Virus record (IMG/VR): IMGVR_UViG_2778261224_000004
DNA length: 47,754 bases
Direction: 5' to 3' (one strand)
Origin: a virus
Taxonomy: Duplodnaviria > Heunggongvirae > Uroviricota > Caudoviricetes
Shown here piece after piece: positions 19,027-46,830 of the stretch. The notes beneath the pieces were generated by a model. It did not search any database, had not been told where the DNA came from, and saw nothing but the letters and a program-made list of their open reading frames with translations. The first letter of the stretch is position 1. Each line of letters starts with the position of its first letter. The translations under genes and the position numbers were made by a program.

Positions 19027-20883
19027 CTATATGGTTACGCCTTTACTTATAACTCTACGGCGTCTTCTACGTATACCTGACGAGTTCTGCACATACACAT
19101 TACCTCGCATTTCCTGTTCGGCAAGCCAGTTAAAATTAGGGTTCAGAATTTCCATCGCGGCAGTTGCATAGTTACGGCAATCAAGAGGCTCGTTACGCTC
19201 GTAGACTTTCACCCACTTTTCTTTTGTCTGCCCATTTTTATATTCAAATATTTTTTTCTCTGATAATAATCCTTTAAAGTATTCGGTATCATATCCTCTG
19301 TCAGAATCTAATGGGAAATGCATATAACCAGGACCAGGATCATGTAGTTTAATTCTTGCCATGATGGTCCCTTTACCATCATCAACCCCCAAATTAAACA
19401 ACATAGCACCCACACGGTTATTATTACTTGGCTTTCCTATAAATGGTAAACCTACCCCACCACGCCCCCTGATAGAGTATATTCGCCTTGATTCTCTCGG
19501 CTTAGTAAAGCGATATACCTCTGTCGTAAAATGCCCACCAGAGTCAATACAAACGGAAGAAATCTGTAATTTTCGACCGTCACGGAATGACCAGCTACGG
19601 AGTAAGTATTCATCAAGTTGTTTCCAGACAACATCTTGTGCGGGATCACCTGGGAATATTTTATATTCTATCCCCCATGACTCCTTACCTTTTCCCCAAC
19701 CGACCAATTCACAAACTAAATACGTGTCCTGTACGTCAACACCAGCACTTAACAATAAAACATCATCTGGTAAAAACTCTTCAAACCTTATTCTGCGTTG
19801 CAACAAGTATTCAGGATCGATATCGTCTTTAGCATCCTCTTTCCATGGCTCACCCAGCTTAAGGTTAATAAACTCCATTAATCCATTTTTATCGCGGTTT
19901 CTGGTTGCTTCCGTAAATTCTTCAACCAGCTCTGACAATGCAACCCACGGGGAGTAAAGACTGTTAATATGAAAACCAACAATACCTTTAACTCCAGTAT
20001 GTTCAGCTATCCATACCCCCTTCGCCAACCAATCAACGTCTGGTTTACCAGATCCGCGCATAATCCCGCCGCACTCACAGCACTCATATCTGGCCGTTTC
20101 CGGTAACGCCTCACCTGAATCGCTCTTATCCCATCTGACTTGCGACCATTTCATCACCTGCATGGTGCCACAACATGGGCAAGGAACATGGTAGTAACGC
20201 TGATCGGAGAGCTTAAACCACTTGTGGATTTTGCTTGTTTCCTCCAAAACAGGAGTAGAAACAAAAACTTTCTTACGATTATGAAAGTTGGTAGTACGCT
20301 GAATACCTAGTTTTAGTGGGTCGCCCTCCTGCGTCACACCGTAACGATCAATCTCATCAGCTAACAGTATTCGAATTGGCCTGGATGCAAGACCTGCTGG
20401 GGAATTAGCACCAACAAGTGCTATATATCCACCAGCGTAATGCTTCATACGTATAGTCGTGCTGGACTTTTTGGCTGCACCGCGCCCCTCTTTCCCTTCA
20501 TGCAGCTTGTGTTTCAAACCAGGGGAATATTTGAACGTCGGATCAATACGCTCTTTTGAAAAAGCCTCAGCCGCCTCTACCGTTGGATAAATCATCAACT
20601 GAGGAGATGGCTCCTGATCTGCAAAGTAACCCATAACATTTAGCTGTAATTCGGATTTACCAATTTGCGAGCTACATTGCATCACTACTGTTTCTGTATC
20701 AGCGTCACCAATAACATCCATTGGTTCACGCAAATATGGCACTCGGCTTGTACGCCACGGCCCTGGCTCTGGAGACGTTCCCGGCGCTACATGACGATAC
20801 TTATCAGCCCATTCGGAAACAGTTAGCCGTGATTTAGGGCGAAGCGCACGGAAAAAAGCGGTGCTCCATACTGTTTCGCCCAT
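19027..20883 (-). CDS. Terminase large subunit, lambda gpA-like
   Basis: 618-aa ORF; N-terminal ..TVSEWADKY.. and ATPase region resemble the GpA terminase family. Confidence 0.85.
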   Translation of the reverse strand: MGETVWSTAFFRALRPKSRLTVSEWADKYRHVAPGTSPEPGPWRTSRVPYLREPMDVIGDADTETVVMQCSSQIGKSELQLNVMGYFADQEPSPQLMIYPTVEAAEAFSKERIDPTFKYSPGLKHKLHEGKEGRGAAKKSSTTIRMKHYAGGYIALVGANSPAGLASRPIRILLADEIDRYGVTQEGDPLKLGIQRTTNFHNRKKVFVSTPVLEETSKIHKWFKLSDQRYYHVPCPCCGTMQVMKWSQVRWDKSDSGEALPETARYECCECGGIMRGSGKPDVDWLAKGVWIAEHTGVKGIVGFHINSLYSPWVALSELVEEFTEATRNRDKNGLMEFINLKLGEPWKEDAKDDIDPEYLLQRRIRFEEFLPDDVLLLSAGVDVQDTYLVCELVGWGKGKESWGIEYKIFPGDPAQDVVWKQLDEYLLRSWSFRDGRKLQISSVCIDSGGHFTTEVYRFTKPRESRRIYSIRGRGGVGLPFIGKPSNNNRVGAMLFNLGVDDGKGTIMARIKLHDPGPGYMHFPLDSDRGYDTEYFKGLLSEKKIFEYKNGQTKEKWVKVYERNEPLDCRNYATAAMEILNPNFNWLAEQEMRGNVYVQNSSGIRRRRRRVISKGVTI

Positions 20884-20888
20884 GAGGT

Positions 20889-21449
20889 TTATTCTTCCTG
20901 CTTAATAAATCGGGATTCCTGGAGCGCCTGAAGCGCAAAATTAATCTCGTCTTCAATAATGCGCTCGATCTCCCTGGCTGTTTTGCCTTCACAACGGGGA
21001 GCTGCTCTTGGAGCAATACTAAATAAGCGGCTACGCAATTCATTAGCTGCCAGAAATGCATCATCCCTGACCGCATCTTTAGCGATGAGAGAGCCTTCCT
21101 TTTCTTCAAATTCAAGGCGTTTCAGCTTTGCCTGATAAATTTTTTCTGCGGTCTTAGCCTTGTTGAATTGCACCGCAACACCGGAAGTACCACCAGCTAA
21201 TCCGGCATCATCAGCGGGTAACTCTGGTTGTTCCGAAGATATCCCATGCCCTCTTTTTCCATTTTCAGCAGATACCTCACGACCAACCTGTCGGCTCGCT
21301 TCATAAGCCGCACTGGCTTTATCAAAATCCAGCTTGCCGCTTTTCAGCACTGGAATGCGACCGGAACGACAGAGCTTCGTAACCATTGCCGGAGAAATAC
21401 CTTTCCGGCGGGCAAACTCTGACTTACTGACGATGGCCATTACTTGCAA
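20889..21449 (-). CDS. Terminase small subunit (Nu1-like, N-terminal HTH)
   Basis: 186-aa ORF directly upstream of large terminase; N-terminal HTH-like SKSEFARRKGISPAMVTKL. Confidence 0.6.
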   Translation of the reverse strand: MQVMAIVSKSEFARRKGISPAMVTKLCRSGRIPVLKSGKLDFDKASAAYEASRQVGREVSAENGKRGHGISSEQPELPADDAGLAGGTSGVAVQFNKAKTAEKIYQAKLKRLEFEEKEGSLIAKDAVRDDAFLAANELRSRLFSIAPRAAPRCEGKTAREIERIIEDEINFALQALQESRFIKQEE

Positions 21450-22030
21450 CCATTAGCAAGATACTGAACAAATCCCTCATGCGTTTCATGCGCGTCGTGG
21501 TACTGACGATAAACATCCAGCAACAATGCAATTTCCATATCCGTCGCGGGAATACGTTCTTTATCAATAGCCAGGTACTTAATTTGAACAACAGGGGAAG
21601 AATTATCGTCTTCTTCCTGCGGCTGTTCATCGCTTAACATTTCGTCAAGCTCTGCATCATTAAACCCAAGCAGATCAATATCAAAATCATCATCCATTAA
21701 CTCTTTGACTTCTTCGGCCAGAAGCTGCATATCCCAGCCAGCATTTAAGGCCAGCTTGTTATCTGCAATCCTGTAAGCCTTCTTCTGTTTTTCAGAAAGG
21801 TTACTCAACCGAATCGCCGGAACTTTATCCATTTCCAGAATTTCGGCTGCTGCAAGCCGCCCATGCCCCGCAATCAGTTCATTCTTTTCATCGATCAGCA
21901 CAGGATTAGTGAAACCGAACTCACGGATACTGTTCACCAACTGTTCAACTTGCTCATCTGAATGAGTCCGTGAATTTTTGGCATATCTGAGCAACTTACC
22001 GACTGGTAAATATTCGATTTTTAGAGCCAT
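21440..22030 (-). CDS. ParB-like nuclease domain (ParB/Srx fold) protein
   Basis: 196-aa ORF; motif ..YAKNSRTHSDEQVEQLVNSIREFGFTNPVLIDE..LIAGHGRLAAA..; paralog of 24697..25320. Confidence 0.7.
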   Translation of the reverse strand: MALKIEYLPVGKLLRYAKNSRTHSDEQVEQLVNSIREFGFTNPVLIDEKNELIAGHGRLAAAEILEMDKVPAIRLSNLSEKQKKAYRIADNKLALNAGWDMQLLAEEVKELMDDDFDIDLLGFNDAELDEMLSDEQPQEEDDNSSPVVQIKYLAIDKERIPATDMEIALLLDVYRQYHDAHETHEGFVQYLANGCK

Positions 22031-22587
22031 TTTTTAACCGCCATAACACAACAGGTTAAAGAAAACTGTTTAACTTATTGATACTAAAAGAGAAAAATGA
22101 CGATCTTTTTACTCATAAAAAATCACACAAACCAGCATAATTATCTGATTTTATTAAGTTTTTATAAGTAAAAAGGATCTTGCGATGGTGTTTTGGTTAA
22201 AAGATTGGATGTATTTGCATGATTTATAACGATTTTTATCAGAACAACATTACATTGGTTAAAGATCTGCGCGTATCTTGATGATCTAAAAGAAAATTTT
22301 CTACTTTCTTTTTACCAGCACAAATACAGCAAAAAATCACGTTTTCCCGATATTTTTCAATGAGATGAGTAAATTTCTTTTACCGCAACTTTTAACCTAA
22401 CTTTTTTCACGTTTAGCTAGCCGAACATCGGGGTTCGAATGACCCGCATCCAACGCTTTTGGCCAGAAGGACCCAATTCTGCCGGACGATGAAACGATGC
22501 TCGTGCTCCCCCACAGACAGCCAGCGAGCGACGCTACAGAACACAGTGAATACACTCTGCATAACAACACCATCAACCACACGATGA
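22031..22587. other. 557-bp AT-rich non-coding gap inside the late gene block (candidate cos/packaging or regulatory region)
   Basis: No convincing ORF; AT-rich with several GATC sites. Confidence 0.3.
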
Positions 22588-23307
22588 TTAACGAGAGAAG
22601 GTCTTAGAAAGAATGTCATCAATCGCCTTTGTGACTTCATCAGCAAACGCATCCTCACCAGCACGCAGCGCCACGCCATGCCAATCAAGACGCTGCGAAT
22701 AGTTAGGTTGCTGGATAAACGTAAGGATCAACGTAGGACGCCGCCCAACGCGCTGCCAGACGCCTGGTTGAAGCGGGTTACTTGTACCAGGTCGAACAAC
22801 AAAAAACTCCGTAGGCTTGCCCTGACGGCGATTTTGATGCGCATCTCGCTGAACTCTTAGGCCAGATAAGACCTGCTGTAATTGCCCCCGCGAAATATTC
22901 CCGTATTTGTCCAGCTTTGCGCCGGGACCAGGAGCAAGCTGCCAGCCGTTAGGCAAATATCCACCAGCCCTTAGCGCCCCTTCTGAGCGTTTGTACTGTC
23001 GTTGGCCACCTTCGATTTGCGGAGTCAACGTTACAGGGGCTGGCGTTCCTCCCCATTCACGAGCATACACAATGGCTGTAGGATCACTCTTCTTTGCGGC
23101 CAAAACGTAAGTAGAGTTCTGAATCCACGGCGTGGGCCTGTCAAATACCCGATTAATTTCATTCTTAATCGCAGCCTGAGAAGCCTTTGCCGTTCTGGTT
23201 GCCGCAAGCGCCATTGCGAACGGCAATTCGCGTTCTTCAAGGCGCTGGAGTTGTCGTTGAATATCCTGAGAAGAAAAATCCATCTTTATCTCAATTCTGT
23301 CAGCCAC
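22588..23307 (-). CDS. Hypothetical protein
   Basis: 239-aa ORF between ParB-methyltransferase fusion and the AT-rich gap. Confidence 0.45.
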   Translation of the reverse strand: MADRIEIKMDFSSQDIQRQLQRLEERELPFAMALAATRTAKASQAAIKNEINRVFDRPTPWIQNSTYVLAAKKSDPTAIVYAREWGGTPAPVTLTPQIEGGQRQYKRSEGALRAGGYLPNGWQLAPGPGAKLDKYGNISRGQLQQVLSGLRVQRDAHQNRRQGKPTEFFVVRPGTSNPLQPGVWQRVGRRPTLILTFIQQPNYSQRLDWHGVALRAGEDAFADEVTKAIDDILSKTFSR

Positions 23308-23323
23308 CAGCGCCTCCTACACA

Positions 23324-24703
23324 CTACTTAATCAACGGCCGGAAAGCCGCCAGCACATCATCAGATCGTCCGATTGTTGAACCACCAGGCAACGGCAACT
23401 CAAACTCAAAACGAACAGCTTTCTCCAGACTCGCCCAACTAAGGGAATCATCGTTAATAACGTGCAAATACCAGCTCTTACAGTTGAATATTGACCGCTT
23501 AATCCTGAAACCATGTACACGACACAACTGCTTCACTTCATCATCAGAGTGAAACTTCTGGTAAAACCAGTGCCCCTTCCGGTACAACGCGGTAAAACCG
23601 TTATGATCAATAAAATAAAGCCGGCTTTTGGAACTCGCAGCTTGTGTTTGCTTCAGGACTGTTTCCAGCTCTCCACGGCTACGGCCAGAAAAGAATATTG
23701 ACCCACCAGCTTTACACAAGCCTTTCAGAACCGTCAGAACGGACCATTCAGCCTCGACACTATCGACCGAGTTCAAAACGCTATCGCAAATCACGTAGTC
23801 GTAACGCCCTCGCGTTTTTAAGTCGTCCACCAGCGTATCAATCATCCGGTTTGTTGCGGTCCTATCCAGAGTGTTTCCAGCGCCCTTACGGCGGAAAAGC
23901 TCGAGATCATGCAGGTTATATCCCTTTGCCCTGAGCATTCGCGCGTAGTCTCCCTGCCCCGAACCAAAATCAATTCCTCTTGGCGTCTTGGCAACGATCG
24001 GGAGGATCAACGACTCATACAGATTTGATTTCAGGCTGCCACCATTACGCAACCGCATAAGCTGCGCATACGTCTGGATGTATGTTGTTTTCTCCAGATG
24101 AGAATACTCAAATACACCATAAGTTTTATTCAGATAACTTTGGTATTTTTCCTTCTCAACATCAGGGATCACAAACACCGTTAGCGGTGTGCGCGTCATT
24201 TTCGCTGCTAATGCATACTGAGCACAGTGAATAACCTCACCAGACTGAGTAGCAACACAACCACCCCACGGACCATACTTGATAACCAGTTCCGCTATGT
24301 TCTTTCGAACATATGCCATTTTCGCGCGCATATTGCCTGAGATCTGGCTTGCCGATACCTGAACAAAACCATGCTTATCTTCCAGACCGGACACCCTGCA
24401 ACGCTCATCTCCGCTATCAAAATCCGTTCCGTTATGCAGTTGGTTAAACCGTACTTCGTCGTATACCGTCGTTTCACAGGGCAACACATACACCGCAGCA
24501 CGCGTTATTCCCAACTTACGTAGCGCCTTCGTCCTTTGGTGTCCCGCCACCAGCAAATCGCCGCGCACTATCAATGGCTTCACAAGCCCCAGCTCCCTGA
24601 CGCTTTCCGCCAGCCTCGCAAGATCATCCTCACCGATAAAACGCGGGTTATATTCCGCGCCGCGTAGGTGCGTTATGTCGTAATTGAGGTGAAGCATCAG
24701 CAC
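23324..24703 (-). CDS. ParB-like N-terminal domain fused to a class I SAM-dependent methyltransferase domain
   Basis: 459-aa ORF; N-terminal ParB-like ..LVAGHQRTKAL..; C-terminal Rossmann methyltransferase motif I GIDFGSGQGDYA and motif II-like YDYVICDSVL; no DPPY/DPPW or PCQ motif seen. Confidence 0.65.
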   Translation of the reverse strand: MLMLHLNYDITHLRGAEYNPRFIGEDDLARLAESVRELGLVKPLIVRGDLLVAGHQRTKALRKLGITRAAVYVLPCETTVYDEVRFNQLHNGTDFDSGDERCRVSGLEDKHGFVQVSASQISGNMRAKMAYVRKNIAELVIKYGPWGGCVATQSGEVIHCAQYALAAKMTRTPLTVFVIPDVEKEKYQSYLNKTYGVFEYSHLEKTTYIQTYAQLMRLRNGGSLKSNLYESLILPIVAKTPRGIDFGSGQGDYARMLRAKGYNLHDLELFRRKGAGNTLDRTATNRMIDTLVDDLKTRGRYDYVICDSVLNSVDSVEAEWSVLTVLKGLCKAGGSIFFSGRSRGELETVLKQTQAASSKSRLYFIDHNGFTALYRKGHWFYQKFHSDDEVKQLCRVHGFRIKRSIFNCKSWYLHVINDDSLSWASLEKAVRFEFELPLPGGSTIGRSDDVLAAFRPLIK

Positions 24704-25320
24704 ACCTCCCCAGCCAGCAATGCGGATACAAATCCGATATAGCTGCCATTATCATCAACATAACGAGACACCGCGCAGTCAAAACGATCCGCTTCCTCAT
24801 CCGTTGCCGGGATTTTATGACCTCCAAATGACAGGTACTGAACTTTTACGCCTGATTTGGCCTCATCCTTCTCAAATGGGATATCCATACCCTCTGTGTC
24901 ATCGTAGACCGCCGCACTCAATAAGTTATCCAGTTCGCGCTGAGTAAAACCAATTGAGTCCAGAGAAAAATCATCGGCCGCAAGATCTGCAAGCTCCGCG
25001 CTTAACAACTCTTCATCCCAACCAGCATTCAGCGGAATACGGTTGTCGGCCAGACGATATGCCTTCTTCTGATTCTCCGTTAGCCCAGCCAGAACAATGC
25101 AGGGAACATCATCCATCCCCAACTGAGTGGCCGCAGCAATTCGACCATGACCAGCAATTACAACGTTGTTCTCGTCTATCAGGATCGGATTAGTCCATCC
25201 GTACTCCTGTATGCTGGCAACAATCTGATCTACCTGCTCCACGGAGTGTGTGCGAGCGTTCTTTTCATAACCAATCAACACAGAAAGTGGTAAAGAAACC
25301 ACATTAAGTTGTTTTGTCAT
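24697..25320 (-). CDS. ParB-like nuclease domain (ParB/Srx fold) protein
   Basis: 207-aa ORF; ..YEKNARTHSVEQVDQIVASIQEYGWTNPILIDE..VIAGHGRIAAA.. Confidence 0.7.
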   Translation of the reverse strand: MTKQLNVVSLPLSVLIGYEKNARTHSVEQVDQIVASIQEYGWTNPILIDENNVVIAGHGRIAAATQLGMDDVPCIVLAGLTENQKKAYRLADNRIPLNAGWDEELLSAELADLAADDFSLDSIGFTQRELDNLLSAAVYDDTEGMDIPFEKDEAKSGVKVQYLSFGGHKIPATDEEADRFDCAVSRYVDDNGSYIGFVSALLAGEVC

Positions 25321-25554
25321 GCCGTTTATCCGCTAAAATCCCCTCGCTTGTGCAAGCAAGTGGGCCTCGGTTTGTATCCACGGCACCCTGTGGGTATGAA
25401 TGACTGTCGTCAGGTCGCAACTGACGGCGGTCGCCCACCTTCCAGTAATAAAAAAGCCACCAGCATTAACTCCACAATGAGCTGGAGTTAATGAGGCAGC
25501 TTTGGTTTGCGCATTATCGCAGCCCCTGATAAGCACAAGAGCTGCTGTAATGCG

Positions 25555-25965
25555 TTACTCTGGTATCAAACAGATGTGGCCGTTATTTACCTCAATACGG
25601 GAATATTCCGGCTTACCATCCACGATTCCGGTAATGACAAGTTCGCCATCAGGCGACCATTCTTCTTTGTCGTCTTCAAGTACCGCGCCTTCTGGCAAAT
25701 CAATACAGGCAAAAACAGGGCAGCCAGGATGACGTTTATCCTCCATCGCAATCAGCATCGACTCACCGAACCACTCTGTGGTAGCACGGCCATCAGCCGC
25801 CTGATAGTGAATCAGATACTGGTTTTCGCCATTTGCATACTGAGCACGGGCTTTAACTTCTCCCCATTCGTCACTGATACGCATTGTTACCAGTTGGGAT
25901 AATTCAAACTTAAACGGAACAGCATCTGCACCAATGGCAATCGGTTTATCTTCTTTCTTTTCCAT
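25555..25965 (-). CDS. Hypothetical protein (start moved to Met preceded by AGGTGA RBS)
   Basis: ORF track gives 25555..26034; the upstream part overlaps an intrinsic terminator, and the Met at 25965 has an RBS 5 nt upstream. Confidence 0.45.
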   Translation of the reverse strand: MEKKEDKPIAIGADAVPFKFELSQLVTMRISDEWGEVKARAQYANGENQYLIHYQAADGRATTEWFGESMLIAMEDKRHPGCPVFACIDLPEGAVLEDDKEEWSPDGELVITGIVDGKPEYSRIEVNNGHICLIPE

Positions 25966-25975
25966 AACATCACCT

Positions 25976-26006
25976 GAAAATAAAAAGCCCCGCGACACCG
26001 CGAGGC
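25976..26006 (-). terminator. Rho-independent terminator (minus strand)
   Basis: 8-bp GC-rich stem (one mismatch) with 4-nt loop followed by TTTTTATTTT on the minus strand. Confidence 0.55.
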
Positions 26007-26014
26007 TGTAAGAG

Positions 26015-26167
26015 TTACTTTCGATAGAAATCAAGGCGCAATTGCTCCCGCTTACGCCGAAAAGCTCTCTGCGCCACTAAGATGCGCCACAGGACACCAG
26101 CGATAACCACCAGCGAGATACAAAAACACACGGCCACAACCATCAGAAAAATGCCAACACCATTCAT
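26015..26167 (-). CDS. Small hydrophobic (membrane) protein, 50 aa
   Basis: Hand translation MNGVGIFLMVVAVCFCISLVVIAGVLWRILVAQRAFRRKREQLRLDFYRK; ATGA start/stop overlap with upstream ORF; not in ORF track (<60 aa). Confidence 0.4.
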   Translation of the reverse strand: MNGVGIFLMVVAVCFCISLVVIAGVLWRILVAQRAFRRKREQLRLDFYRK

Positions 26168-26421
26168 GAAACTATCCATTCTTCAATGAATATCTCCAGT
26201 AATATCAAGAGATACGCCGTTCCCAGCGCGGTTCCTACCGATATAGCTAAGACAAACCTCAAAGATAACGAGGTGTCCTTCGCTTTTCTCCAGACGTAAG
26301 CGCCAGCCAGAAATACCAACAAATCTCTTATTGGAAGCGGAAACCAGAACAAATCACTCGGCAAGTCCACGGTTATATCCTTCCATTCATTTTTATCGGG
26401 TGACCAGATAGCCTTAGGCAA
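26164..26421 (-). CDS. Hypothetical membrane protein
   Basis: 85-aa ORF with hydrophobic C-terminal half; start uncertain (overlaps previous ORF by 49 nt). Confidence 0.4.
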   Translation of the reverse strand: MPKAIWSPDKNEWKDITVDLPSDLFWFPLPIRDLLVFLAGAYVWRKAKDTSLSLRFVLAISVGTALGTAYLLILLEIFIEEWIVS

Positions 26422-26828
26422 TTGAGCTGTAAAGCTCCTGTATCAACTAAATGATCAACTAACATGATTAGAGATTCATATTCAGCCAGATAGCTAACCT
26501 GACGCATTCGACCGCCGTTGTTCTCCAGAATGTCAGCCACCTTTGCAGCCAACTCGCTTAGACAGAAGAACTTATTCCCATATATCGTTTTATACTCGCG
26601 CTTCTGGCATTCTTCGGCTTGCGGCTGGTTATCGAGAGCTATCAGCGACCGATGGCTATCAATGAAGTCCACAATCTCATTCAGGCATTCTTTAGCTGCC
26701 TCATCGTGACTTTTTCCGTATGCTTCACGGAGGACTTTCATCCTCATCATTGCTCCGTCACATATAGTCGAAAGCGCGTAAAGCACATCACTAACCGCCA
26801 TTTCTTTTTTGGTGCTTGTCGAAGGCAT
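26373..26828 (-). CDS. Hypothetical protein
   Basis: 151-aa ORF in accessory block. Confidence 0.45.
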   Translation of the reverse strand: MPSTSTKKEMAVSDVLYALSTICDGAMMRMKVLREAYGKSHDEAAKECLNEIVDFIDSHRSLIALDNQPQAEECQKREYKTIYGNKFFCLSELAAKVADILENNGGRMRQVSYLAEYESLIMLVDHLVDTGALQLNCLRLSGHPIKMNGRI

Positions 26829-26902
26829 CCCATGTTCTCCTTTGTCTGGATGTAAAAAAGCCCCGGCAATTGCCGAGGCTCGTTGTTCGTTATCGTTACG
26901 GT

Positions 26903-27103
26903 TTAATGCTCGCGTCGTCCGGCGACAACTTCGGATTTGTATTTCAGGTCGCCCAGCAAGAATTGCAGTTTAAGCATCTTTGCCGCCGTGTAGTTCCCTG
27001 ATTCCACAACCTCTTTCATGAGGTCATAAACGGCCGCTACATCATCAGCCAGGAACTCTTTGCGTTGCTGCTCAGTCGCACGTTTGAAGGAAATACGCAT
27101 CAC
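26903..27103 (-). CDS. Hypothetical protein
   Basis: 66-aa ORF, ATGA overlap with upstream gene. Confidence 0.4.
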   Translation of the reverse strand: MMRISFKRATEQQRKEFLADDVAAVYDLMKEVVESGNYTAAKMLKLQFLLGDLKYKSEVVAGRREH

Positions 27104-27369
27104 TCATCATCTCCTGCCGCACATACAACCTCACAAAAAAAATCAGCAGAATGTTTCTCCTTGAACGAATGACGCTCAAAACCGCACTCAATATCAGGCG
27201 CAAAAACATCCACCACATACGGTCTTTCAGAATGTTTGTTTTCCCAACGATAAACCGTAGTGACGTTGAAATGTTTTAACGCTTCACGGAACTCAACGCT
27301 GCCCGTCAGGTTTTTTGAGGTCAGGTATTGCAGGAGGTTTTTTACTACTTCACGGTCTTGTACTTTCAT
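27100..27369 (-). CDS. Hypothetical protein, first gene after repeat copy A
   Basis: 89-aa ORF; GGAG RBS 8 nt upstream of ATG inside the conserved 112-bp cassette. Confidence 0.45.
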   Translation of the reverse strand: MKVQDREVVKNLLQYLTSKNLTGSVEFREALKHFNVTTVYRWENKHSERPYVVDVFAPDIECGFERHSFKEKHSADFFCEVVCAAGDDE

Positions 27370-27478
27370 CGGGTTATCTCCGGTTTAACCAGGGCGGGTA
27401 TCGCTCGGTTTCGGGTATAACCATAGGAAATTTTTTCCCATCTGTAAAGCACTTTTTATATAAATCTATAATTATATA
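27367..27478 (-). promoter_or_regulatory. Conserved ~112-bp promoter/leader cassette, copy A
   Basis: More than 95 percent identical to 34245..34355 and 43156..43267; contains AT-rich motif, TTTACA-N17-TATGGT promoter-like hexamers, leader and RBS. Confidence 0.55.
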
Positions 27479-27481
27479 ATT

Positions 27482-28069
27482 CTATGACACTTGCCAGAGA
27501 GCATCATGCAACTGGATACCTCCGTTGCACTGGTTGCCCCAGCCATGCCAGCCATCAGGTAAATCACCGCGAGCAAACAGCTCAATACGAGGAACATCGC
27601 CTAACAGCTTTACCAGCTTGTCACGGACCACATCAGGCTTCCGAGAATGCTCCAGACGAGGCGATGTAAACGACTGAATGATCCCCGCATCAAGACGTGT
27701 CGGTAGTTTGCCTTTCACTGCAAACAAGCAATCTTCACTGTTTGCACGAGTCATATGCCCCATCCCCATCACCAGCTTATCTGGTTGTCGGCTACCACAT
27801 TTGTTCCATGTGAAGCCCTTCATGGTCATCAGCCTGAATCCCCATGCTTTCACCACCAGCAACGCTTCTTCTGGCTGAGTCGGAACCCACCACATGGCCA
27901 ACAAACACGATTCAGGATTAGCAAGCTGCCAGACAGGAATACGAGCAATATCCTCAGCTTTCATCGTTGGATACTTAAAACCAGCGCCACGATTCCCATC
28001 CTTACACTTGTCTTTGTATTCCCAGGGGGGATCTGCATAAATCAGATTAAACAATGCAATTGCCTCCAT
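27482..28069 (-). CDS. MT-A70-family N6-adenine DNA methyltransferase
   Basis: 195-aa ORF with catalytic motif YADPPWEY near the N-terminus. Confidence 0.7.
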   Translation of the reverse strand: MEAIALFNLIYADPPWEYKDKCKDGNRGAGFKYPTMKAEDIARIPVWQLANPESCLLAMWWVPTQPEEALLVVKAWGFRLMTMKGFTWNKCGSRQPDKLVMGMGHMTRANSEDCLFAVKGKLPTRLDAGIIQSFTSPRLEHSRKPDVVRDKLVKLLGDVPRIELFARGDLPDGWHGWGNQCNGGIQLHDALWQVS

Positions 28070-28376: not shown

Positions 28377-28452
28377 TGGTGGCCCCTACCGGATTTGAAC
28401 CGATGACCGTGCGATTATGAGTCGCCTGCTCTAACCACTGAGCTAAGGGGCC
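28377..28452 (-). tRNA. tRNA with CAT anticodon (Met or lysidine-type Ile2), encoded CCA end
   Basis: Hand-folded cloverleaf GGCCCCTTAGCTCAGTGGTTAGAGCAGGCGACTCATAATCGCACGGTCATCGGTTCAAATCCGGTAGGGGCCACCA: 7-bp acceptor stem, D arm, anticodon loop CTCATAA, T loop TTCAAAT. Confidence 0.85.
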
Positions 28453-45852: not shown

Positions 45853-46830
45853 TTAATGTTGGAGTGATTTCCAGGTCTTTCTTAACCTGTTATAACGCTG
45901 CTCAACGAGGGATCGTAAATATGCAAGGTCAGCTCCAGGATACATGCCATCAGCAAATTCCTGGCTAACCTCTCTAGTGATTTGATGACGAAGTTCGGCC
46001 TCTCCCTTTTCCCGAACAAGACGCGCAGCTCTCTCCGCTGCTTTCTGTTTTGCCTTTATCTCTCTGGCCGTCTTCCTCTGATGCCATACATTCTCCATCT
46101 GCTCCTGAATAACAATACGCTTATAATCAGCCTCCGTTATCGCTTTTTTAAGCCGTTCGCTATTCTTCGCATTGAAGTAATTAAGTTTCTGGCTAACCGC
46201 ACGTCTCCATGCTTGTTCAGTAATACCAACGGTTTCCAGCAGTTGATCACGAATCTCTATTTTCGCTGGCCAATACTGTTTATTCACCCGATCCCAGCGA
46301 CGTTCATAATCAATAAAACCTAACGCTTTCAGTTGCGACAATGCCCTTGTACAGCGCGTTATAGACTTGTTCCCAGCTTCGGATACGGTAGACAGGCCGC
46401 AAAAATCAGCCAACGCCTCAGCACTGGCCAGAACCCGCTTAGAAATGATGTTTACATGGTGCAAAATCGCAGCGATCACAGCATTAATCGCCCGACGACG
46501 ATGCTCGTTTATCCGGCGCTTCCGCTCTGACGGTTGATTAACGTAGAACGCAACCTCACACGTAAGATCACGCCCATTAATGCGCTGTAAAGCATCAGAT
46601 AACACCAGCGGCAGCTTGTGCGTATGGTGCTTTGGAGGCTGGAACTCCGGCGACAAATTACAAACGTAAGCTGAACGTAGAGACGGCATTGGTCTATCCA
46701 TATGTTCGCTCTTGCGTCCACGGAAAACCAACGTATAATGGGAGTTGTCGAGGCGCCCATGGTTAGTTGTTGGTTTTCCGTGGATGTCGCAAGAAGCCCG
46801 CAGATTTATCTGCGGGCTTTTTGTTTCCAT
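45853..46830 (-). CDS. repA: Plasmid replication initiator RepA, IncFII (RepFIIA)-like; true start probably internal (Met 46701 or 46692)
   Basis: 325-aa ORF; ..FCGLSTVSEAGNKSITRCTRALSQLKALGFIDYERRWD.. resembles the RepA1 core as recalled; the N-terminal 43 codons overlap the antisense-RNA/leader structures. Confidence 0.6.
   Translation of the reverse strand: METKSPQINLRASCDIHGKPTTNHGRLDNSHYTLVFRGRKSEHMDRPMPSLRSAYVCNLSPEFQPPKHHTHKLPLVLSDALQRINGRDLTCEVAFYVNQPSERKRRINEHRRRAINAVIAAILHHVNIISKRVLASAEALADFCGLSTVSEAGNKSITRCTRALSQLKALGFIDYERRWDRVNKQYWPAKIEIRDQLLETVGITEQAWRRAVSQKLNYFNAKNSERLKKAITEADYKRIVIQEQMENVWHQRKTAREIKAKQKAAERAARLVREKGEAELRHQITREVSQEFADGMYPGADLAYLRSLVEQRYNRLRKTWKSLQH
46746..46826 (+). 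ncRNA. Candidate CopA-like antisense RNA opposite the repA leader
   Basis: Plus-strand TTGCGT-N16-TATAAT (46712-46739) and, about 80 nt downstream, terminator GCCCGCAGA-TTTA-TCTGCGGGC plus TTTTGTTT (46796-46826); perfect 15-bp inverted repeat 46718-46732 / 46768-46782 in the leader. Confidence 0.5.

What the first reader, a model, noticed from the sequence alone, without database searches (positions are those of the whole stretch)
21440..25320. Three paralogous ParB-like nuclease-domain genes clustered just upstream of the terminase
Genes 24697..25320 and 21440..22030 are clear paralogs, and the fusion gene between them carries a third ParB-like domain. The last one overlaps the start of the small terminase gene. 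No HNH endonuclease gene is visible next to the terminase, so ParB-like nucleases may take part in genome end processing/packaging, or they may be a DNA-modification/anti-defence module riding in the late operon.
Basis: inference. Interest (0 to 1): 0.6.

Follow-up and report, generated by a model that had tools for sequence, protein, structure and literature searches.

The report
ParB-fold DNA-modification helpers flanking cos
Three genes with the ParB fold lie on either side of the DNA-packaging start site of a 48-kb E. coli phage-plasmid, and comparison with other phages indicates that they work with DNA-modifying (anti-restriction) enzymes and do not cut genome ends; this is an uncharacterised example of a known kind of system.

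Summary
Genes 21440..22030 (A1) and 24697..25320 (A2) are 48% identical paralogues. Gene 23324..24697 carries a third, distant ParB_N domain fused to a class-I SAM methyltransferase.

They do not form one block upstream of the terminase. A 239-aa gene and the cos site separate A2 and the fusion from A1. The probable 12-nt cohesive end is GGTCATTCGAAC, at 22433..22444.

The element is a ~48-kb phage-plasmid with its own ParA/RHH-like pair. Its lambda-type gpA terminase has its own nuclease domain, so no HNH is needed.

Among 80 related viral loci, 48 carry the module in a protein of 300 aa or more; all 9 tested were fusions to N6/N4 DNA methylases. Of 21 stand-alone copies outside this lineage, 17 are followed directly by a Dam, C5-methylase, N6/N4-methylase, Mom or TAGT gene. 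The module sits beside terminases of at least five families.

The pair A2 plus fusion recurs in Serratia, Bradyrhizobium and metagenomic phages. Recent papers show ParB-like proteins without a DNA-binding domain activating phage DNA-modifying enzymes, and list ParB–Methyltransf_23 fusions as phage-enriched.

Best reading: late-expressed helpers of DNA modification, not end-processing nucleases. A1's partner and the fusion's substrate are unknown. This is a new member of a known kind, of moderate interest.

The parts
24697..25320 (-). ParB-A2: stand-alone ParB/Srx-fold protein, 207 aa. It has a nucleotide-binding-type N-domain, a helical segment, an acidic linker and a small C-terminal domain. 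Its stop codon overlaps the start of the fusion gene (TGATG).
   Evidence: Orthologues directly precede the fusion gene in a metagenomic phage and in two Serratia contigs. In Bradyrhizobium one gene on the opposite strand lies between them.
23324..24697 (-). Fusion protein, 457 aa from the ATG at 24697 (459 aa from the GTG at 24703). It consists of an N-terminal ParB_N domain with GHQR in box II, a strongly conserved middle region, and a C-terminal class-I SAM methyltransferase (Methyltransf_23).
   Evidence: Pfam and PHROG phrog_5475 at 2.9e-265. 715 homologues; the 120 listed are 45-99% identical, mostly over 97-100% of the query. Conserved residues. AF2 model with pLDDT 94.1 and pTM 0.90. 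Foldseek hits are only generic class-I methyltransferases. No (D/N/S)PP(Y/F/W) motif.
22588..23307 (-). 239-aa gene, the last gene before cos. Its function is unknown, and the PHROG label 'minor tail protein' is unverified. Probably not part of the ParB system.
   Evidence: phrog_1924 at 2.5e-97, no Pfam hit and no PDB sequence hit. Homologues are the last gene before the genome end in Pseudomonas phages F10, MD8 and JBD68. Conserved upstream of A1 in relatives.
22429..22476 (-). Conserved cos core. It contains the probable 12-nt cohesive end GGTCATTCGAAC (minus strand, 22444..22433).
   Evidence: Genome records of three virion isolates start or end at 22444|22445 (vB_YpM_39, vB_YpM_41) or at 22432|22433 (vB_YpM_44), 12 nt apart. 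The 12-mer and its flanks are identical in five diverged relatives whose surrounding sequence differs. The ends were not measured here, so this is an inference.
22031..22428 (-). AT-rich (about 30% GC) cosB-like region between cosN and the A1 start codon. It holds all five window copies of GGTTAAARR, which are candidate binding sites for the small terminase, or less likely for A1.
   Evidence: (5 matches, all within 22031..22397; whole-window expectation 2.4).
21440..22030 (-). ParB-A1: stand-alone ParB/Srx-fold protein, 196 aa. It is the first gene after cos, and its stop codon overlaps the terS start (TAATG).
   Evidence: AF2 model (pLDDT 78.6): N-domain 1-93, helices 101-132, disordered 136-149, small C-domain 151-192, no helix-turn-helix. 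The nearest solved folds are the N-domains of Noc, ParB, PadC and KorB. Orthologues sit in the same position in L004-L009 and L186.
20889..21440 (-). Small terminase subunit, 183 aa from the ATG at 21440.
   Evidence: phrog_57 at 7.4e-42. N-terminal winged-helix-like similarity. PGAP gives the same start.
19027..20883 (-). Large terminase subunit, lambda gpA type, with its own endonuclease domain.
   Evidence: GpA_ATPase 7.1e-76 and GpA_nuclease 1.1e-84.
27482..28069 (-). MT-A70-family N6-adenine DNA methyltransferase with DPPW at residue 13. It lies in the same late transcription direction and is a candidate partner of a stand-alone ParB. The link is unproven.
   Evidence: MT-A70 at 4e-23. 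phrog_21315 is matched over its N-terminal part by A1 and A2 and over its C-terminal part by this protein, which is consistent with a ParB_N + MT-A70 fusion family. DPPW motif. The co-occurrence test was inconclusive.

Best explanation
The three genes belong to the phage branch of the ParB-CTPase/sulfiredoxin fold that works with enzymes modifying DNA after replication. They are not partition proteins, and they are probably not end-cutting nucleases.

A2 and the fusion form a conserved two-gene cassette. It consists of a stand-alone ParB-like protein without a DNA-binding domain and a SAM-dependent methyltransferase with its own ParB domain. A1 is a paralogue of A2, fixed as the first gene after cos and translationally coupled to the small terminase.

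Proposed mechanism (inferred, not shown). All these genes point the same way, downstream of the lysis genes, so they are probably made late. The ParB-fold proteins would dimerise through their small C-terminal domain and hold or activate a modifying enzyme on double-stranded DNA. This would happen shortly before or while the concatemer is packaged, so that progeny DNA leaves the cell modified and resists restriction in the next host. The enzyme could be the fused methyltransferase, or possibly the MT-A70 adenine methylase upstream.

Shown here: the domain architectures, the paralogy, the position of cos, and the gene-neighbourhood statistics. Inferred: DNA as the fusion's substrate, the identity of A1's partner, and the clamp or activator mode of action.
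For: (1) Closest relatives. Of 80 related viral loci, 48 carry the module in a protein of 300 aa or more. All 9 such proteins tested are ParB_N + N6_N4 DNA methylase.

(2) Neighbours of stand-alone copies. Of 21 stand-alone copies outside this lineage, 17 are followed directly by a DNA-modifying enzyme: D12 Dam, C5 methylase, N6_N4 methylase, Mom or TET-associated glycosyltransferase. Nine were identified by Pfam, the rest by similarity to those. One locus has a ParB-Mom fusion.

(3) The cassette recurs. The stand-alone ParB (201-213 aa) directly precedes the 459-468-aa fusion, with overlapping genes, in a metagenomic phage with a gpA terminase, a Serratia prophage with Terminase_2/6, and a second Serratia contig. 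Both genes are also present in Bradyrhizobium, with one opposite-strand gene between them.

(4) Architecture of A1 and A2. N-domain, short helical segment, disordered acidic linker and small C-domain, with no helix-turn-helix. This is the architecture described for ParB176, the obligatory activator of a phage thymine dioxygenase on dsDNA (PMC13229309).

(5) ParB + Methyltransf_23 and ParB + N6_N4 fusions are listed as phage- and prophage-enriched (PMC12704722).

(6) The module lies within 3 kb of a terminase in at least 45 of 80 loci, across the gpA, Terminase_2, Terminase_3, Terminase_6 and TerL_ATPase families. This fits a timing or position link better than one enzymatic partner.

(7) The idea that ParB directs modification machinery during packaging is already in the literature (PMC8256090, citing Iyer et al. 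2013).

(8) The stretch between the lysis genes and cos holds other anti-defence cargo: MT-A70 here and an Acb2/Tad1-like gene in Serratia.
Against: No experiment exists for these proteins.

The fusion's methyltransferase domain resembles only generic small-molecule and tRNA class-I methyltransferases at 10-17% identity. It lacks the (D/N/S)PP(Y/F/W) motif of DNA amino-methylases. DNA is therefore not an established substrate.

A1 is followed by terS, not by a modifying enzyme. Relatives L005, L007 and L008 keep A1 without A2, the fusion or MT-A70 within 6 kb. One of them does carry a Dam gene in its early region, but that is weak support. Four other loci (L029, L030, L031, L043) also have an orphan stand-alone ParB beside the terminase, so a packaging-related role for A1 remains possible.

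In the published ParB176 system, mutating the presumed NTP-binding residues had little effect and no stable complex was trapped. The mechanism is therefore unclear even in the best-studied case.
Confidence: 0.6

Rival explanations
1. Packaging accessory. One or more of the ParB-like proteins, A1 especially, nicks or cuts DNA at cos, or helps the terminase recognise or cut it, as the HNH protein does for HK97.
For: A1 is the first gene after cos and is translationally coupled to terS. This position is conserved in relatives that lack A2 and the fusion. In other phages the module sits inside the terS-terL-portal block. A ParB domain of a Bacillus ParB-methylase was reported to nick DNA non-specifically (PMC5512222). 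Repeats in the cos-A1 spacer could be binding sites.
Against: The gpA terminase has its own nuclease domain. The module accompanies at least five unrelated terminase families. Most relatives are fused to, or followed by, DNA-modifying enzymes. Pseudomonas cos phages that share the gene preceding cos here (the 239-aa gene) carry it at their genome end; whether they also encode A1 was not checked. No nuclease motif is defined or visible.
Confidence: 0.1
2. The fusion methylates something other than DNA, such as a small molecule, a nucleotide, RNA (tRNA) or a phage or host protein. Its ParB-fold domain and A2 would then act as a nucleotide-binding regulatory part.
For: The fold matches only generic class-I methyltransferases: Trm9, METTL6, glycine N-methyltransferase and natural-product methylases. 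No DNA-methylase catalytic motif is present. ParB-SAM-methyltransferase fusions bound ATP in vitro (PMC12704722). Sulfiredoxin and SerK show that this fold can act on non-DNA substrates.
Against: In relatives the neighbours and fusion partners of this ParB subfamily are, where identified, DNA-modifying enzymes. The cassette always lies in late or packaging-proximal phage regions.
Confidence: 0.15
3. Plasmid partition. Because the element lives as a plasmid, the ParB-like proteins would be its centromere-binding partition proteins.
For: The element is on 47-50-kb plasmids in 80 of 83 places in complete E. coli genomes. The fold is that of ParB. Depositors annotate the genes as partition proteins.
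Against: There is no helix-turn-helix domain and no ParA-binding motif, and box II reads GHGR/GHQR in place of GERR. The proteins score below the TIGR00180 cut-off. The element has its own small ParA (38201..38869) followed by an 82-aa protein that looks ribbon-helix-helix-like by eye, near the repressor gene and 13 kb away. A1 orthologues occur in a relative with the lambdoid early genes Q and RusA, and in Serratia elements. The genes lie in the late operon.
Confidence: 0.03
4. Conflict or regulatory role unrelated to modification. The ParB-fold proteins would act as DNA clamps that silence genes (KorB-like), as nucleases against host or rival DNA (Osa-like), or as virion-packaged anti-restriction proteins (P1 DdrB/Dar-like).
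For: These roles are documented or proposed for other members of the fold (PMC5512222; KorB appears among the fold hits). The genes sit in a late, virion-proximal position.
Against: No DNA-binding domain is present. Neither the DdrB-specific features nor a peptidase domain is seen. The neighbourhood statistics point to modifying enzymes.
Confidence: 0.07

Closest known systems
ParB-like activators of phage 5-methylpyrimidine (thymine) dioxygenases, e.g. ParB176 (O'Toole et al., PNAS 2026, PMC13229309)
   Same: Both are stand-alone phage proteins with a ParB nucleotide-binding-type N-domain, a short helical segment, a disordered linker and a small C-terminal domain, and no DNA-binding domain. 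Both are encoded next to a DNA-modifying enzyme and often near terminase genes. MxParB and CcParB are the closest solved folds.
   Different: No dioxygenase was seen among the window proteins scanned. The neighbouring enzyme of A2 is a methyltransferase that itself carries a ParB domain. A1 has no adjacent enzyme.
ParB_N + N6_N4 DNA methyltransferase fusions of phages, prophages and plasmids (phrog_498; Bacillus cereus Bce_0392 type)
   Same: A1 and A2 match the first ~150 residues of this family (phrog_498 positions 31-181, E about 1e-50). They are 50-64% identical to those N-termini. The genes occupy the same genomic slot next to the terminase.
   Different: A1 and A2 lack the methylase domain and have their own ~50-aa C-terminal domain. 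The window's fusion carries Methyltransf_23, not N6_N4_Mtase, and has no DPPY-type motif.
ParB-CTPase fold + Methyltransf_23 (PF13489) fusions catalogued as phage-enriched (Kaljevic et al., PNAS 2025, PMC12704722)
   Same: Same domain pair and the same prophage context. The window protein appears to be a member of this catalogued class.
   Different: The paper assigns no function or substrate. It does not describe the obligatory upstream stand-alone ParB partner or the conserved middle region, as far as the passages read show.
Canonical ParB/Noc/KorB CTP-dependent DNA clamps
   Same: Same N-terminal fold. The box II arginine (R58 in A1) and the box I N-x-R are kept.
   Different: No HTH domain, no ParA-binding motif and no adjacent parA. 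The catalytic Glu and the first Arg of GERR are replaced (GHGR/GHQR).
HK97 gp74-type HNH endonuclease, a packaging accessory encoded next to the terminase
   Same: A small gene placed beside the terminase genes.
   Different: The fold is different and there is no HNH motif. Here the terminase is gpA type with its own nuclease domain. That HNH helpers go with HK97-type terminases is from general knowledge, not tested here.

Membership tests
Canonical partition ParB (ParABS, TIGR00180) | ParB N-terminal (CTPase) fold | tested here: met
   Pfam ParB_N. PDB sequence hits to ParB, Noc and Spo0J. Foldseek hits for the A1 model to Noc, MxParB, CcParB, PadC and KorB.
Canonical partition ParB (ParABS, TIGR00180) | Box II GERRxR with the catalytic Glu | tested here: not met
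   GHGR in A1 and A2, GHQR in the fusion. Only the last Arg is kept.
Canonical partition ParB (ParABS, TIGR00180) | Central helix-turn-helix parS-binding domain and a full-length family score | tested here: not met
   No HTH family in Pfam. The AF2 model of A1 has only a short helical segment, a disordered linker and a small C-domain. TIGR00180 gives 40.1 and 29.6 bits against a cut-off of 58.45.
Canonical partition ParB (ParABS, TIGR00180) | N-terminal ParA-binding motif and an adjacent parA gene | tested here: not met
   No [LFI]G[KR]G[LFI] motif. The only ParA (38201..38869) is about 13 kb away and is followed by its own 82-aa partner candidate.
Phage ParB-like activators of DNA-modifying enzymes (PMC13229309) | Architecture: N-domain + short helical segment + unstructured linker + C-terminal domain, no DNA-binding domain | tested here: met
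   A1 model: 1-93, helices 101-132, disordered 136-149, C-domain 151-192. The family alignment shows the same blocks.
Phage ParB-like activators of DNA-modifying enzymes (PMC13229309) | Encoded next to the enzyme it serves | tested here: inconclusive
   A2: met, since its gene overlaps the methyltransferase fusion here and in three other lineages. A1: not met, since terS follows it. In 17 of 21 stand-alone relatives outside this lineage a modifying enzyme follows.
Phage ParB-like activators of DNA-modifying enzymes (PMC13229309) | The enzyme needs the ParB-like protein for activity on dsDNA | not testable with these tools
   This needs co-expression or in vitro assays.
ParB_N-methyltransferase fusions of phages (PMC12704722; phrog_498, phrog_5475) | ParB_N domain and a SAM-dependent methyltransferase domain in one polypeptide | tested here: met
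   Fusion: ParB_N at 9-70 and Methyltransf_23 at 238-400. Motif I D245-F-G-x-G249 and acidic E268 are invariant across the 60 aligned sequences. The model is a Rossmann-type methyltransferase.
DNA amino-methyltransferases (N6A/N4C) | Catalytic (D/N/S)PP(Y/F/W) motif | tested here: not met
   Absent from the fusion. Present as DPPW in the separate MT-A70 protein.
HNH packaging accessory endonucleases (HK97 gp74 type) | HNH motif, and pairing with a terminase that lacks self-sufficient cos cleavage | tested here: not met
   No HNH family hit and no CxxC in A1, A2, the fusion or the 239-aa protein. The terminase is gpA type with a GpA_nuclease domain.
ParB-like 'nuclease' (old Pfam name ParBc) | Demonstrable DNase or nicking activity | not testable with these tools
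   Only literature precedents for other members exist (PMC5512222). No defined catalytic signature is available to check.

The most novel reading that the evidence does not exclude
The A2-plus-fusion cassette would be a two-component, nucleotide-gated enzyme. It would put a non-canonical methyl mark on phage DNA, made by a methyltransferase fold not known to act on DNA bases. A1 would load at the GGTTAAARR repeats next to cos and, made together with the small terminase, would confine modification to the DNA being packaged. That would give cis-specific, packaging-coupled epigenetic protection.
Probability: 0.12. Interest if true: 0.7.

Novelty: new member of a known kind. Interest (0 to 1): 0.35.

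Why it matters
This element is common. It is present in 74 of 5,426 complete E. coli genomes, including the reference strain ATCC 25922, and infectious virions have been isolated on Yersinia pestis.

It therefore offers a tractable system for two open questions.
- How do ParB-fold proteins without a DNA-binding domain switch on DNA-modifying enzymes?
- What does the phage-enriched ParB–Methyltransf_23 fusion methylate?

If the proteins protect the DNA of a phage-plasmid that moves among Escherichia, Salmonella and Yersinia, they bear on host range and on gene flow carried by such elements.

For annotation, the practical point is that 'ParB-like nuclease' or 'partition protein' next to a terminase usually marks a DNA-modification module.

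Tried and rejected
- **Partition role: rejected.** There is no HTH and no ParA motif, a separate ParA/82-aa pair exists, and orthologues occur in a prophage with lambdoid early genes.
- **Second ParB fold in the fusion's middle region (residues ~100-235): not shown.** The secondary-structure pattern suggests it, but profile-profile comparison gives only 3.7% probability.
- **Fold search of the fusion model against the PDB: uninformative.** It returned only generic class-I methyltransferases.
- **MT-A70 as A1's partner: inconclusive.** Relative L007 has a Dam gene in its early region instead.
- **Published virion-end data for vB_YpM_39/41/44: none found**. cos therefore rests on record boundaries and conservation.
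- **Published description of this phage-plasmid group: none found.** A survey of P1, D6, SSU5 and N15 groups does not cover it.
- **ParB domain in the non-specific methylase M.EcoGII: nothing found**.
- **Promoter/terminator scan of the region: no signal above shuffled controls**.
- **Iyer et al. 2013 could not be read**. It is cited only through papers that quote it.

Full report
**What is there**

All genes in this part of the window are on the minus strand. In the direction of transcription the order is:

| Feature | Coordinates | Note |
|---|---|---|
| Lysis genes | upstream | |
| tRNA-Met (CAT) | 28377..28452 | |
| MT-A70 adenine methylase | 27482..28069 | |
| Several small unknown ORFs | between 28069 and 25320 | |
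| ParB-A2 | 24697..25320 | 207 aa |
| ParB–methyltransferase fusion | 23324..24697 | 457 aa from the ATG |
| 239-aa gene | 22588..23307 | function unknown |
| Non-coding gap | 22031..22587 | 557 bp |
| ParB-A1 | 21440..22030 | 196 aa |
| Small terminase | 20889..21440 | |
| Large terminase | 19027..20883 | |

A1 and A2 are clear paralogues, 48% identical over their whole length (E=2e-62). The fusion shares only its first ~75 residues with them, at about 30% identity (E=4e-5 and 2e-6). A profile-profile comparison confirms that homology (97.9% probability, E=3e-13).

The A1 stop codon overlaps the terS start as TAATG. The A2 stop codon overlaps the fusion start as TGATG. The caveats are that the genes are not contiguous and that 'nuclease' is only the historical name of the Pfam domain.

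**The element**

In complete E. coli genomes this region occurs in 74 of 5,426 genomes. Eighty of 83 places are on circular plasmids of 47-50 kb, including the plasmid of ATCC 25922. That plasmid encodes:
- an IncFII-type RepA;
- a small ParA followed by an 82-aa protein;
- a RelE/HigB toxin pair;
- a Hin-type invertase;
- a contractile tail and a lambda-like head module.

Nearly identical genomes were deposited as virions isolated on Yersinia pestis EV76 (vB_YpM_39, 41, 44). It is thus a functional phage-plasmid.

**cos lies inside the 'cluster'**

The records of vB_YpM_39 and vB_YpM_41 begin and end at window 22444|22445. The record of vB_YpM_44 begins and ends at 22432|22433, exactly 12 nt away. 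A 12-nt offset is what a lambda-type 12-nt cohesive end gives when either strand end is taken as the boundary.

The 12-mer GGTCATTCGAAC and about 35 flanking bases are identical in five diverged relatives, although the surrounding spacer has drifted. In all of them it lies about 412 nt upstream of the A1 start.

The spacer between it and A1 has about 30% GC. It holds all five window matches to GGTTAAARR, against a whole-window expectation of 2.4. This arrangement recalls lambda cosB; that comparison is from general knowledge, not a test.

In the virion chromosome, then, A1 is the first gene at one end. A2, the fusion and the 239-aa gene are the last genes at the other end. The ends were not measured here, so cos remains a strong inference.

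**Why an end-processing nuclease is unlikely**

- The large terminase has both the GpA_ATPase domain and the GpA_nuclease domain (7e-76 and 1e-84). From general knowledge, lambda-type terminases cut cos themselves and HNH helpers belong to HK97-type systems. The missing HNH therefore needs no explanation.
- A1, A2, the fusion and the 239-aa protein show no HNH-like motif.
- The same ParB module is found beside terminases of the gpA, Terminase_2, Terminase_3, Terminase_6 and TerL_ATPase/TerL_nuclease families. This does not fit a dedicated partner of one nuclease.

**What the relatives say**

A pattern search with the A1/A2 alignment returned 80 viral loci.

- **Fused copies.** In 48 loci the homologous module is the N-terminus of a protein of 300 aa or more, and in 29 it is stand-alone. 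All 9 long proteins tested are ParB_N + N6_N4 DNA methylase.
- **Stand-alone copies.** I tested the gene immediately downstream of nine stand-alone copies. It was a D12 Dam methylase (1), a TET-associated glycosyltransferase (1), an N6_N4 methylase (2), Mom (4) or a C5 cytosine methylase (1).
- **Extended count.** Using those nine as seeds, 17 of the 21 stand-alone copies outside this lineage are followed by such an enzyme. One locus has a ParB-Mom fusion.
- **Terminase proximity.** A terminase lies within 3 kb in at least 45 of 80 loci. Six of ten further loci tested had other terminase families two genes downstream.
- **Position in the genome.** In GenBank phages the gene is often gene 1 or among the last genes of the record.
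- **Family size.** The family has 17,950 cluster representatives at E≤1e-10.

**The A2–fusion cassette**

The fusion family is well conserved: 715 hits, and the 120 listed are 45-99% identical, mostly over nearly the full query length. Many residues are at least 90% conserved across the 60 aligned sequences:
- GHQR in box II;
- a block E83-F86-N87-Q88-H90-N91-G92-T93-D94-D96 at the end of the ParB domain;
- methyltransferase motif I, D245-F-G-x-G.

The AlphaFold model is confident (pLDDT 94.1, pTM 0.90). Its methyltransferase part resembles only generic class-I enzymes at 10-17% identity. The (D/N/S)PP(Y/F/W) motif of DNA amino-methylases is absent, whereas the separate MT-A70 protein has DPPW.

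A stand-alone ParB of 201-213 aa directly precedes the fusion, with overlapping genes, in three other places:
- a metagenomic phage with a gpA terminase;
- a Serratia prophage with a Terminase_2/Terminase_6 pair;
- a second Serratia contig with the same order as here.

In Bradyrhizobium both genes are present with one opposite-strand gene between them. The two genes are therefore a unit, which moves between phages with different packaging machinery. Relatives L005, L007 and L008 have A1 but lack this unit.

**A1 and A2 architecture**

The A1 model (pLDDT 78.6) has four parts:
- a ParB-type N-domain (1-93);
- helices (101-132);
- a disordered acidic linker (136-149);
- a small C-terminal domain (151-192).

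There is no helix-turn-helix. Its nearest solved folds are the N-domains of Noc, ParB, PadC and KorB. Box II reads GHGR rather than GERR, so the catalytic Glu of CTPase ParBs is missing. The box II Arg and an N-x-R in box I are kept.

**Literature**

- O'Toole et al. (PNAS 2026, PMC13229309) showed that a phage ParB-like protein with this architecture, lacking a DNA-binding domain, is required for a thymine dioxygenase to act on double-stranded DNA. They also found that such pathways often co-occur with terminases.
- Kaljevic et al. (PNAS 2025, PMC12704722) list N6_N4 methylase and Methyltransf_23 among the domains most often fused to the ParB fold in phages. They suggest an anti-defence role and found ATP binding in some ParB–SAM-methyltransferase fusions.
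- Burke et al. (PMC8256090) quote the earlier proposal by Aravind's group that ParB proteins direct modification machinery during packaging.
- Iyer et al. 2017 (PMC5512222) summarise reports of nicking and NTPase activity in other ParB domains.

**Conclusion**

The best-supported reading is that A2 and the fusion form a late-expressed DNA-modification cassette. A1 would be a paralogous helper placed at the head of the packaging operon. The likely purpose is to modify progeny DNA before or during packaging.

Confidence is about 0.6 overall. It is higher for A2 and the fusion than for A1, whose partner is not identified. The main open points are:
- the fusion's substrate, which may not be DNA;
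- whether A1 acts with MT-A70, with the fusion, or with the terminase.

A partition role is rejected. The proteins lack the HTH and ParA-binding features, the element has its own ParA pair, and A1 orthologues occur in a relative carrying the lambdoid early genes Q and RusA.

The finding is a new member of a known kind. It is useful as an experimental system but would not surprise a specialist.

Noticed in passing
window 22429..22476 (core), 22031..22428 (spacer): Probable cos site with a 12-nt end, GGTCATTCGAAC. It is perfectly conserved in five diverged relatives. An AT-rich spacer follows that holds all five window copies of GGTTAAARR, in mixed orientation as in lambda cosB.
   Followed up: yes
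window 22588..23307 (minus): The 239-aa gene has no Pfam or PDB sequence match. Its homologues are the last gene before the genome end in Pseudomonas phages F10, MD8, JBD68 and LPPA36, and they occur in Ralstonia, Sinorhizobium and Paracoccus phages. The PHROG label 'minor tail protein' looks unverified. A conserved gene that always precedes cos may deserve its own look.
   Followed up: partly
whole window; RepA 45853..46830 (minus), ParA 38201..38869 (plus), 82-aa ORF 38913..39161 (plus): The window is a ~48-kb phage-plasmid with an IncFII-type RepA, a small ParA and an 82-aa protein that looks RHH-like by eye. It is found on plasmids in 74 of 5,426 complete E. coli genomes, including ATCC 25922, and as virions on Yersinia pestis. 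It is not one of the P1, D6, SSU5 or N15 groups screened in the one survey read.
   Followed up: partly
L186 2821..3099 (Serratia relative); window 25321..27481: In the Serratia relative, the stretch between the lysis genes and the A2 orthologue holds an Acb2/Tad1-hairpin family gene, an anti-CBASS/anti-Thoeris sponge family. The window has MT-A70 and several unknown small ORFs in that stretch, which looks like an exchangeable anti-defence island.
   Followed up: partly
L006 3753..5404: One relative has an IS200/IS605 element (tnpA plus tnpB/Cas12f-like) inserted between the 239-aa gene and cos.
   Followed up: no
L069 75..3844: A viral contig stacks ParB (143 aa), Mom, a ParB-Mom fusion (434 aa) and a C5 methylase directly upstream of the large terminase. 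Several modification enzymes each appear to have their own ParB module.
   Followed up: no
L029, L031, L043 (ParB 195 aa between terL and the portal gene): Related phages (for example L036 and L062) carry a 412-aa ParB-N6_N4 methylase between the large terminase and the portal gene. These three contigs carry only a 195-aa ParB in that slot. This suggests that stand-alone ParB genes can arise by loss of the methylase half.
   Followed up: partly
window 28377..28452 (minus): A tRNA gene with anticodon CAT. ARAGORN and the Yersinia phage record call it Met, whereas PGAP calls it Ile (lysidine type). It lies between the lysis genes and MT-A70.
   Followed up: no
window 25986..26007 (minus): A strong terminator-like hairpin (9 pairs, 7 of them G-C, followed by a T run). 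It lies within the first codons of the long version of the 159-aa ORF, upstream of the shorter start that PGAP annotates, and about 670 nt upstream of A2.
   Followed up: no
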